Shown: piece by piece, positions 48,101 through 48,248 of the stretch
Numbering within the stretch: position 1 is the stretch's first letter
Layout of the letters: each line of letters begins with the position of its first letter
From: Escherichia phage kaaroe
Sequence record: MN850574.1
Length of the DNA: 64,000 bases
Direction: 5' to 3' (one strand)
Translations under genes and position numbers: made by a program
The notes under the pieces: model-generated
Told to the model about the DNA's origin: nothing
The model's input: the letters and a program-made list of their open reading frames with translations, nothing else
The model's database searches: none

Positions 48101-48248
48101 TAGTGAACTAAAGACAGCGCGGTTAGAATGATTTGGACGTCACCTAGCCGCATTTATTGCGGCGTATGGGCGATCCGGTACGCTAAAGCATTAACTTGCT
48201 AGGCCGCTAGCAGGTTGGAGACAAGGAAGATTCGCTACCTTCCCTATA

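What the first reader, a model, noticed from the sequence alone, without database searches (positions are those of the whole stretch)
48101..48248. Structured non-coding stretch upstream of a terminator: candidate small RNA
Seen in sequence: about 150 bp without a credible ORF, containing several stable hairpins (GCCGCA...TGCGGC, GCTAG-GCCG-CTAGC, GGAAG...CTTCC) and ending in a strong intrinsic terminator. T4 encodes small stable RNAs in its accessory regions, but this does not fold as a tRNA by eye. A similar ORF-free 230-bp stretch with long-range pairing and a terminator lies at 58996-59256.
Basis: partly seen in the sequence, partly recalled or inferred. Interest (0 to 1): 0.4.

Follow-up and report, generated by a model that had tools for sequence, protein, structure and literature searches.

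The report
Conserved structured RNA in RB49-like phages
A roughly 170-base non-coding stretch at the end of an early operon of RB49-type (Krischvirus) coliphages folds into four conserved hairpins plus a terminator and is under clear purifying selection, so it is very probably a real but so far undescribed phage RNA element whose function is unknown.

Summary
Window 48101-48275 has no conserved ORF and folds unusually well: it ranks 3rd of 5,110 150-nt windows in the 64 kb. It ends in an intrinsic terminator that is the stem-loop of a PeSL promoter/terminator cassette.

The window is a Krischvirus (RB49-like T4-type phage). The stretch is single-copy, present in all 58 Krischvirus records and absent elsewhere.

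Outside one hot spot it is far more conserved than neighbouring synonymous sites: 4/147 variable columns against 24% of third codon positions. Every substitution in a stem keeps pairing, including one G-C to G-U to A-U series. Indels of 1-2 nt exclude coding. Conserved G-U pairs point to the + strand.

The real fold is hairpins A-D, with a possible closing helix or pseudoknot.

It matches no Rfam family, no tRNA model and not T4 rnaC/rnaD, although it lies in the syntenic region.

Best reading: a functional structured RNA at the 3' end of the dmd operon, probably a stable small RNA.

A 13-nt exact match to the ToxI antitoxin core is an intriguing but unproven lead.

The "similar" stretch at 58996-59256 is much weaker.

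The parts
47882..48100 (+). Upstream ORF (RB49p118 homologue): 72 aa, two hydrophobic segments and a basic tail. It is the last gene of the early dmd operon, and its stop codon TAA abuts the element.
   Evidence: Found only in Krischvirus, always together with the element (58 records). Fast-evolving: 81-92% aa identity in metagenome relatives.
48092..48099 (+). TATAAATA, an exact match to the T4-type late-promoter consensus. It would start transcription near 48105. Candidate only.
   Evidence: one of only two + strand matches in the window, where about 2.9 per strand are expected by chance. Invariant in all relatives. Context compared with nine late-gene promoters. Not in the published RB49 late-promoter list. 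It overlaps the codons TAT AAA TAA.
48101..48107 (+). 5' segment UAGUGAA, complementary to the loop of hairpin D (UUCGCUA). Possible closing helix of a four-way junction, or a pseudoknot.
   Evidence: Predicted in the MFE and RNAalifold structures. Invariant apart from one T>C, so there is no covariation to test it.
48119..48151 (+). Hairpin A: GCGGUUAG/CUAGCCGC (8 bp), an internal loop, then UGAU/GUCA (4 bp) and loop UUGGAC.
   Evidence: All 12 pairs are invariant in 19 distinct sequences. It contains two conserved G-U pairs.
48161..48184 (+). Hairpin B: a 7-bp stem (RGCGUAU/GUACGYU) carrying a short GG(R)...(Y)CC helix. Its tip (about 48167-48177) is a substitution and indel hot spot.
   Evidence: Pair 62:85 is G-C in 16 sequences, G-U in 1 and A-U in 2. 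Pairs 61:86, 64:83 and 71:76 change on one side only and stay paired. 9 of 28 columns vary. Length differences of 0, +1 and +2 nt occur.
48194..48215 (+). Hairpin C: a 9-bp stem (11 bp in this strain) with loop GCCG.
   Evidence: invariant in all sequences.
48217..48224 (+). Single-stranded linker GGAGACAA. It holds a GGAG, the minimal RegB motif, in a poor context.
   Evidence: Sequence read directly. The RegB/S1 consensus GGAGRAYARAA from PMC1702504 is matched at 8 of 11 positions, with a disfavoured C at position 6.
48225..48243 (+). Hairpin D: GGAAG/CUUCC with 9-nt loop AUUCGCUAC. Positions 48229-48241 (GATTCGCTACCTT) are identical to positions 5-17 of the 36-nt ToxI repeat of several enterobacterial toxIN plasmids.
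   Evidence: One A>G change turns A-U into G-U. The ToxI match is shown.
48248..48273 (+). Intrinsic terminator: 9-bp stem, UUCG loop and a run of six U. It is the stem-loop half of the PeSL cassette.
   Evidence: Invariant. The PeSL concept comes from PMC2839356.
48302..48330 (+). Sigma-70-type early promoter of the PeSL cassette (TTGACA, 17 nt, CATAAT), driving the next operon. This is the boundary of the element, not part of the RNA.
   Evidence: 11 of 12 matches. Annotated in GEC-3S. The repeated part of the 521-nt query has about 10 copies per genome, whereas the element has one.

Best explanation
The stretch is a functional, structured non-coding RNA domain read from the + strand. It forms the last roughly 170 nt of the early transcript that starts at the PeSL promoter near 46761 and carries a small ORF, dmd and five small membrane-protein ORFs.

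The fold is four hairpins (A-D) and then the terminator hairpin. The 5' segment can pair with the D loop, closing a compact four-way junction or pseudoknot.

I think it most likely accumulates as a stable terminator-ended small RNA of about 170-180 nt. It could be cut from the operon's 3' end or started at the TATAAATA eight bases upstream. I think it works through a sequence-specific partner (protein or RNA), with hairpin B's tip as a free or fast-evolving loop.

Shown: it is non-coding, it is structured, the strand is +, it is under purifying selection, stems B and D keep pairing, and it is restricted to one genus.

Inferred: a discrete RNA species, action in trans, and the partner.
For: Present once per genome in 58 of 58 Krischvirus records and in 9 metagenome or viral contigs.

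Conservation:
- Cold part 4/147 variable columns, against 199/818 third codon positions of 12 flanking ORFs (Fisher p 1e-11).
- Against the adjacent, well-conserved ORF the comparison is 4/147 versus 9/61 (p 0.0025).
- In the most divergent relative the element is 96.6-100% identical, next to an ORF at 82%.

Structure:
- 99.9% of 964 pair cells are standard pairs.
- One pair shows G-C, G-U and A-U; five pairs have one-sided changes that keep pairing; no stem substitution breaks a pair.
- The same A-B-C fold is predicted independently in four haplotypes.
- The + strand folds better than the - strand (z -4.67 against -2.88).
- Conserved G-U pairs would be A-C on the other strand.

Other points:
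- G+C is 49%, against 41% for the window.
- 1-2 nt indels and frame-breaking differences exclude a peptide.
- Loops and linkers are as invariant as stems, which argues for more than a bare exonuclease barrier.
Against: No transcript data exist for any Krischvirus in the searched literature.

Covariation rests on a single pair, because all known relatives are at least 95% identical. The shuffle control reaches the observed number of covarying pairs in 152 of 500 trials.

Mosaic recombination could contribute to the low divergence, since the adjacent PeSL and next ORF are also well conserved.

The TATAAATA is not enriched on this strand and is absent from the published promoter list.

No target stands out among translation-initiation regions in the window. 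There is no complementarity beyond 11 nt.
Confidence: 0.55

Rival explanations
1. A purely cis-acting 3' UTR module. The stacked hairpins ahead of the PeSL stem-loop protect the dmd/anti-defence operon mRNA from 3'-5' exonucleases and strengthen termination or insulation before the next strong promoter. No separate RNA species has a function of its own.
For: It is physically the 3' end of the operon, directly abutting the stop codon and the terminator. PeSL stem-loops are documented terminators or attenuators (PMC2839356). No trans target was found.
Against: Other PeSL junctions in the same genome do without such a module, because the element is single-copy. A barrier needs structure, not sequence, yet unpaired linkers and loops are nearly invariant.
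Confidence: 0.25
2. An anti-defence RNA derived from, or mimicking, the ToxI antitoxin of type III toxin-antitoxin (ToxIN) abortive-infection systems. Hairpin D carries the ToxI pseudoknot core, and the RNA would bind or titrate ToxN, or otherwise interfere with ToxIN, as pseudo-ToxI does in phage phiTE.
For: - GATTCGCTACCTT (48229-48241) is identical to positions 5-17 of ToxI repeats on E. coli, Lelliottia and Pectobacterium plasmids.
- Local alignment p is 0.002-0.003 against dinucleotide shuffles.
- It is the best match in the whole 64 kb on both strands.
- It is the top hit of a nine-sequence ToxI HMM: E 0.2 for the window, with the next hit at E 7.
- The match is followed by TAAG and then a terminator, like the last partial repeat of a toxI array.
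- The operon also carries dmd, and Acb1 lies just upstream.
- In T4 the ToxN inhibitor tifA sits beside dmd (PMC10853763).
- ToxIN plasmids are common in E. coli.
- An RNA-mimicry precedent exists (PMC3475682).
Against: - Only 14 of 37 profile positions align.
- The family-invariant UAAGUGCG (second pseudoknot stem) and the A-rich tail with the AAAU/GAAAU ToxN site are absent.
- There are no tandem repeats.
- In phiTE, 1.5 repeats were inactive.
- The second-best ToxI-like segment is not significant (p 0.09) and lies in the hypervariable tip.
- ToxI was chosen after I noticed the match, so the p-values are optimistic.
Confidence: 0.08
3. A decaying remnant of a lost gene or a neutral spacer. 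It looks conserved only because this block was recently homogenised by recombination among closely related phages.
For: All known carriers are at least 95% identical here. The neighbouring PeSL and ORF 48377-48562 are also little diverged. These genomes are mosaics (PMC2839356).
Against: A hot spot at or above the neutral level (9/28 variable columns) sits inside the block, while the flanking 147 nt are at 2.7%. Five independent lineages show the same pattern, with divergence dropping at the stop codon. All stem substitutions are pair-preserving. The stretch folds better than nearly every other part of the window.
Confidence: 0.06
4. A DNA-level signal, such as a protein-binding site, a replication origin, or a recombination or endonuclease target, rather than an RNA.
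For: Strong sequence conservation includes the unpaired positions. The hot spot could mark a cleavage or repair site.
Against: Strand asymmetry of folding and conserved G-U pairs. There is no AT-rich unwinding element: G+C is 49%. There are no iterons or repeats. No homing-endonuclease gene lies nearby.
Confidence: 0.04

Closest known systems
Phage T4 stable RNAs rnaC and rnaD (species 1 and 2)
   Same: These are small structured RNAs of unknown function encoded in the hyperplastic region between 57B and the lysozyme gene. That is the same syntenic interval as here: 53-4-2-3-1-57A-57B ... endolysin.
   Different: No sequence or covariance-model similarity was found. The T4 RNAs are cut out of a tRNA precursor and have tRNA-like 3' ends. 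RB49-type phages have no tRNA genes (PMC1524935), and this RNA ends in an intrinsic terminator.
3'-UTR-derived, terminator-ended bacterial small RNAs (general class; from my own knowledge of e.g. CpxQ and SroC)
   Same: The element lies at the 3' end of an operon and shares the operon's terminator hairpin and U-tail. It has conserved hairpins upstream of the terminator and AU-rich single-stranded linkers that could be endonuclease sites.
   Different: No processing, Hfq or ProQ binding, or target is shown. At about 170 nt with four hairpins it is larger and more structured than most members of that class.
PeSL promoter/stem-loop cassettes of RB49, phi1 and JSE (PMC2839356, PMC4122927)
   Same: The terminator at 48248-48273 and the promoter at 48302-48330 form such a cassette. 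The element sits directly against it.
   Different: PeSLs are repeated, at about 10 copies per genome. The 150 nt upstream is single-copy and is not part of the described motif.
ToxI and phage pseudo-ToxI (type III antitoxin RNA and its viral mimic)
   Same: A 13-nt identical core (GAUUCGCUACCUU) sits in a hairpin loop and 3' strand. The element is non-coding, phage-borne and in an anti-defence neighbourhood, followed by UAAG and a terminator.
   Different: There is no repeat array, no second pseudoknot stem, no ToxN processing site and no full 36-nt unit. The similarity covers 14 of 37 positions.

Membership tests
tRNA or tRNA-like gene | Cloverleaf with canonical D, anticodon and T arms, detectable by tRNA finders | tested here: not met
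   ARAGORN finds nothing in the whole window. There is no tRNA hit in Rfam at E up to 10. The D loop AUUCGCUAC is not a canonical T-loop, read directly from the sequence.
Any Rfam 15 family | Covariance-model score at or above the family's gathering threshold | tested here: not met
   No hits at gathering score in 64 kb. At E up to 10 there are only weak matches driven by the terminator, the best at 23.6 bits against a threshold of 100. Rfam holds no ToxI model: a genuine ToxI array gives no hit.
T4 rnaC/rnaD | Sequence or structure homology to the T4 RNAs | tested here: not met
   blastn-short finds matches of at most 9 nt. The model of the element scores at most 6.5 bits on the T4 tRNA/rnaC/rnaD locus.
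T4 rnaC/rnaD | Location in the 57B-to-lysozyme hyperplastic region | tested here: met
   Gene order in T4 and in RB49.
T4 rnaC/rnaD | Maturation from a tRNA-cluster precursor | tested here: not met
   There are no tRNA genes in the window or in RB49. The 3' end is an intrinsic terminator.
ToxI type III antitoxin or pseudo-ToxI | Tandem array of 34-38 nt repeats | tested here: not met
   The element is single-copy, with no internal repeat. The second-best ToxI-like segment scores 11/17 (p 0.09). Real arrays have 3-13 copies.
ToxI type III antitoxin or pseudo-ToxI | Full repeat unit, including the conserved UAAGUGCG (second pseudoknot stem) | tested here: not met
   The HMM aligns only positions 4-17 of 37. 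Downstream the element reads UAAGCCAC, not UAAGUGCG.
ToxI type III antitoxin or pseudo-ToxI | A-rich tails with the ToxN cleavage motif (AAAU or GAAAU) | tested here: not met
   No AAAU occurs anywhere in 48101-48275 (sequence). The motifs are taken from PMC8860590.
ToxI type III antitoxin or pseudo-ToxI | Core sequence similarity beyond chance | tested here: inconclusive
   A 13-nt exact match, p 0.002-0.003. It is the top hit of the window. The comparator was chosen post hoc.
ToxI type III antitoxin or pseudo-ToxI | Neutralises ToxN | not testable with these tools
   Needs co-expression or an infection assay.
PeSL cassette | Stem-loop terminator coupled to a sigma-70 early promoter, repeated through the hyperplastic regions | tested here: met
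   Met for 48248-48330 only. The 48101-48247 stretch is single-copy and lies outside the motif.
3'-UTR-derived or terminator-ended small RNA | Intrinsic terminator with a U-tail shared with the upstream operon | tested here: met
3'-UTR-derived or terminator-ended small RNA | A discrete stable RNA species with a defined 5' end | not testable with these tools
   No Krischvirus transcriptome was found in the literature searched.
Small protein gene | A reading frame conserved among relatives | tested here: not met
   Stops occur in all frames. The only ATG frame (48129, 24 codons) is shifted by the 1-2 nt indels in relatives. CDS calls in three GenBank records use different, non-conserved frames.
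Riboswitch or attenuator | An alternative antiterminator pairing with the 5' half of the terminator | not tested
   Checked only by eye: no segment complementary to AAGCCACUC lies upstream. There is no Rfam riboswitch hit.

The most novel reading that the evidence does not exclude
The RNA is an anti-defence molecule: a single-copy, hairpin-embedded derivative of the ToxI antitoxin that lets RB49-type phages escape ToxIN abortive infection or a related RNA-guided or RNase-based defence. It would form an anti-toxin island together with dmd, and hairpin B's hypervariable tip would be evolving in an arms race. That would be a naturally fixed, structurally remodelled RNA antitoxin mimic in a T4-type coliphage, rather than the laboratory-selected repeat expansion seen in phiTE.
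Probability: 0.08. Interest if true: 0.8.

Novelty: new member of a known kind. Interest (0 to 1): 0.42.

Why it matters
No trans-acting or structured regulatory RNA has been functionally characterised in T4-type phages, and T4's own rnaC and rnaD remain without a role (PMC3014915).

This is a strongly constrained, genus-wide RNA sitting at the end of an operon that carries the antitoxin Dmd, just downstream of the anti-CBASS gene Acb1. It is a concrete, small and easily deleted candidate for finding out what such phage RNAs do.

If it proved to be an anti-defence RNA, it would add a natural case of RNA-based counter-defence.

It also corrects annotation. Several GenBank records place spurious protein genes over it, and none annotates an RNA.

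Tried and rejected
- **Rfam:** tried at gathering threshold and at permissive E-values. Only terminator-driven noise came back.
- **ARAGORN:** nothing.
- **Homology to T4 rnaC/rnaD:** none, by blastn-short and by my own covariance model.
- **Paralogues in the window:** the weak model hits at 6531-6703, 7738-7857, 31645-31762 and 61498-61670. The two whose alignments were examined (6531-6703, largely inside a coding ORF, and 7738-7857) align only over the terminator hairpin. The other two were not examined.
- **Relatives outside Krischvirus:** none in 50,697 phage records at E up to 10. None in E. coli genomes. IMG/VR, JGI metagenomes and GTDB genomes gave only near-identical Krischvirus contigs and one chance 19-mer in a Porticoccaceae MAG.
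- **Nearest outgroup:** the search via Acb1 found nothing between 95% and 52% identity.
- **Base-pairing targets:** no complementarity beyond 11 nt within the window. The best duplex with 183 translation-initiation regions equals the shuffle mean.
- **RegB processing at the GGAG:** the context matches 8 of 11 consensus positions with a disfavoured C, so it is left open.
- **CsrA-type GGA motifs:** three in 150 nt is what chance predicts (my own estimate).
- **Late promoter:** the TATAAATA is present and invariant but not statistically enriched, and it is not in the published list.
- **A second or third ToxI-like repeat in hairpins A and B:** not significant and not conserved.
- **Scan for toxN loci in GTDB genomes:** found nothing, so plasmid records were used instead.

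Full report
**What the window is.** The 521 bases around the finding match 58 phage records at 96-99% identity, all of the genus Krischvirus (RB49, phi1, JSE, GEC-3S and others). Gene order in RB49 is 53-4-2-3-1-57A-57B, then a long run of small early ORFs up to the endolysin. In T4 the same interval holds ipI, the tRNA cluster and the stable RNAs rnaC and rnaD. The finding therefore lies in the hyperplastic region syntenic with the T4 small-RNA region.

Locally, a sigma-70 promoter at 46761-46789 heads an operon of one small ORF, dmd (46988-47191) and five small hydrophobic ORFs. The last of these ends at 48100. Next come the non-coding stretch, a terminator at 48248-48273, a strong promoter at 48302-48330 and the following ORF at 48377. 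Terminator plus promoter is a PeSL cassette as described for RB49 and phi1 (PMC2839356). That part of the query is repeated about ten times per genome, whereas the 150 nt upstream of it occurs once.

**Checking the observation.**
- No frame is open across the stretch.
- With the terminator, the + strand folds to -64.8 kcal/mol (z -4.67; 0 of 200 shuffles as good) and the - strand to z -2.88.
- Without the terminator it is -50.0 kcal/mol, z -2.62.
- I folded every 150-nt window of the 64 kb on both strands and corrected for G+C. The window 48126-48275 ranks third of 5,110.
- G+C is 49% against 41% overall.
- The third hairpin (GCCGCA...TGCGGC) is not conserved. RB49, GEC-3S and most others read TACAGC, some TGCAGC or TTCGAC. 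It also competes with an invariant 8-bp stem, GCGGTTAG/CTAGCCGC.

**Comparative evidence.** I aligned the window with 14 GenBank genomes chosen for divergence and with contigs found through the upstream protein, IMG/VR and JGI metagenomes. This gave 19 distinct haplotypes.

Variation is concentrated in the tip of one hairpin (about 48167-48177), including length differences of 0, +1 and +2 nt. That alone excludes a conserved reading frame.

Among the 15 genomes, the rest of the element (147 nt) has 4 variable columns (2.7%). This compares with 24% of third codon positions in the twelve flanking ORFs (Fisher p 1e-11) and 15% in the adjacent, best-conserved ORF (p 0.0025). The hot spot has 9 of 28 variable columns.

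In the most divergent relative (a 170-kb metagenome contig) the upstream ORF is 82% identical, while the two cold blocks are 96.6% and 96.8% and the terminator is 100%. In five lineages the density of differences falls at the stop codon.

**Structure.** RNAalifold and single-sequence folds of four haplotypes agree on the following:
- hairpin A (48119-48151);
- hairpin B (48161-48184);
- hairpin C (48194-48215);
- either hairpin D (48225-48243) or a helix between the 5' segment UAGUGAA (48101-48107) and the D loop UUCGCUA.

The last two are compatible as a pseudoknot or as the closing helix of a four-way junction.

Counting pairs on the alignment, 99.9% of 964 cells are standard pairs. One pair of stem B runs G-C (16 sequences), G-U (1) and A-U (2). 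Five further pairs in B and D change on one side only and stay paired. No substitution in any stem breaks a pair.

Stems A, C, the terminator and the 5'/D-loop helix never vary, so they are neither supported nor contradicted. With relatives this close, covariation is thin: the shuffle control reaches one covarying pair in 152 of 500 trials. The consistent pair-preserving direction of about seven independent changes, the conserved G-U pairs and the strand asymmetry all point to an RNA read from the + strand.

**What it is not.**
- Rfam gives nothing at gathering scores, and only terminator-driven weak matches otherwise.
- ARAGORN finds no tRNA.
- There is no similarity to T4 rnaC or rnaD by blastn-short or by a covariance model built from the alignment.
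- That model finds no paralogue in the window. Of its weak hits, the two I examined residue by residue (6531-6703 and 7738-7857) align only over a family of similar terminator hairpins.
- Nothing similar exists in 50,697 phage records outside Krischvirus, in complete E. coli genomes, or in the viral, metagenome and genome collections.
- The next relatives of the flanking Acb1 gene are only 52% identical, so no useful outgroup exists.

**How it is probably made.** It is transcribed at least as the 3' end of the early operon. An exact TATAAATA, the T4-type late-promoter element (PMC1524935), lies at 48092-48099 and would start an RNA near 48105.

This motif is invariant, but it overlaps the last codons of the ORF. 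It is one of two + strand matches where about three are expected, and it is not among the 17 published RB49 late promoters. I treat it as possible, not shown. The GGAG in the C-D linker is a poor RegB/S1 site.

**A lead on function.** Hairpin D contains GATTCGCTACCTT. I recalled the ToxI antitoxin repeat of Pectobacterium and checked it. The recalled 36-mer is exact, and it also occurs on 49 small E. coli plasmids. Variants from E. coli, Lelliottia and another Pectobacterium plasmid read AGGTGATTCGCTACCTT..., which is a 13-nt exact match to the element.
- Against four variants, the local alignment score of 26 is reached by 0.2-0.3% of dinucleotide shuffles.
- It is the best score in the whole window on both strands.
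- A nine-sequence ToxI HMM puts its top hit there (E 0.2 for 128 kb searched; next hit E 7).
- The context fits. dmd is in the same operon and Acb1 is just upstream. In T4 the ToxN inhibitor tifA neighbours dmd. Phage phiTE escapes ToxIN with a pseudo-ToxI RNA.
- Against it: only 14 of 37 positions align. The family-invariant UAAGUGCG and the A-rich ToxN site are missing. There is no repeat array, and in phiTE 1.5 repeats were inactive. The other ToxI-like segments I thought I saw are not significant. The comparator was chosen after seeing the match.

I rate this at about 8%. Rfam has no ToxI model, so its silence says nothing either way.

**Other tests of function led nowhere.** There is no complementarity beyond 11 nt in the window. 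No translation-initiation region pairs better than with shuffled versions.

It is ORF-free and ends in a terminator. It folds no better than shuffles (z -1.24). It is partly replaced in phage Brandy and reduced to the terminator in JK32. It is not comparable to the main element.

**Verdict.** This is a real, conserved, structured, genus-restricted non-coding RNA element. It is unannotated in all 58 records and overlaid by spurious CDS calls in a few. It is most likely a stable small RNA or a functional 3' domain of the dmd operon transcript. It is a new member of a known kind rather than a new kind, and its function remains open.

Noticed in passing
window 48377-48562: The ORF just downstream (61 aa, Pfam DUF7421) is essentially invariant in Krischvirus. 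It is about 78% identical at protein level to a gene of roughly 50-kb T1-like siphophages of E. coli and Shigella (118 records). This suggests gene exchange between very different phage families.
   Followed up: partly
window 47882-48100: The small membrane-protein ORF abutting the element evolves much faster than its surroundings. It is 81-92% identical at protein level in relatives whose neighbouring sequence is 93-98% identical at nucleotide level. It occurs only in Krischvirus.
   Followed up: partly
window 42326-42475 (+): This is the most stable 150-nt window of the whole 64 kb after G+C correction (z -4.2). It lies at the divergent late-promoter region between genes 53 and 4, with a TATAAATA at 42440 on the - strand.
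   Followed up: no
window 7825-8238; also 6668-6867 and 44055-44243: These are long stretches without any ORF of 45 aa or more on either strand. The first is 414 nt, which is unusual for a tightly packed T4-type genome.
   Followed up: no
It is not significantly structured (z -1.24), is replaced in phage Brandy and is nearly absent in JK32.
   Followed up: yes
window 58701-58850 (+) and 10676-10825 (-): Further windows among the ten most stable folds of the window. I did not check whether they are coding.
   Followed up: no
window 6679-6703 and 7833-7857: Terminator hairpins of one sequence family (AGCCnnCCTTCGGGGnGGCTTTTTT), close to the element's own terminator. They account for the two weak covariance-model hits whose alignments I examined.
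   Followed up: partly
window 45796-46260 (57B): RefSeq names this gene 'RNA ligase'. The precomputed Pfam hit is Acb1, the anti-CBASS phosphodiesterase. The locus therefore reads Acb1, two PeSL units, then the dmd operon with the RNA at its end, which looks like an anti-defence neighbourhood.
   Followed up: partly
L007 1588-1731, L010 1622-1768, L017 1427-1537 (GenBank PP418985, OR896825, PQ306574): Three records annotate hypothetical proteins across the non-coding element, in different frames that are not conserved among relatives. These are probably annotation artefacts.
   Followed up: yes
L024 865-1066 (pECA1039) and 49 E. coli plasmids: The Pectobacterium ToxI 36-nt repeat is 100% identical on many small mobilisable E. 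coli, Salmonella and Klebsiella plasmids. A second subfamily (GATTCGC..GCGGGAC) matches the phiTE pseudo-ToxI changes described in PMC3475682.
   Followed up: partly
window 58267-58274 (+): The only other + strand TATAAATA in the window. By coordinate arithmetic it corresponds to the published RB49 late promoter Pl:48756.
   Followed up: partly
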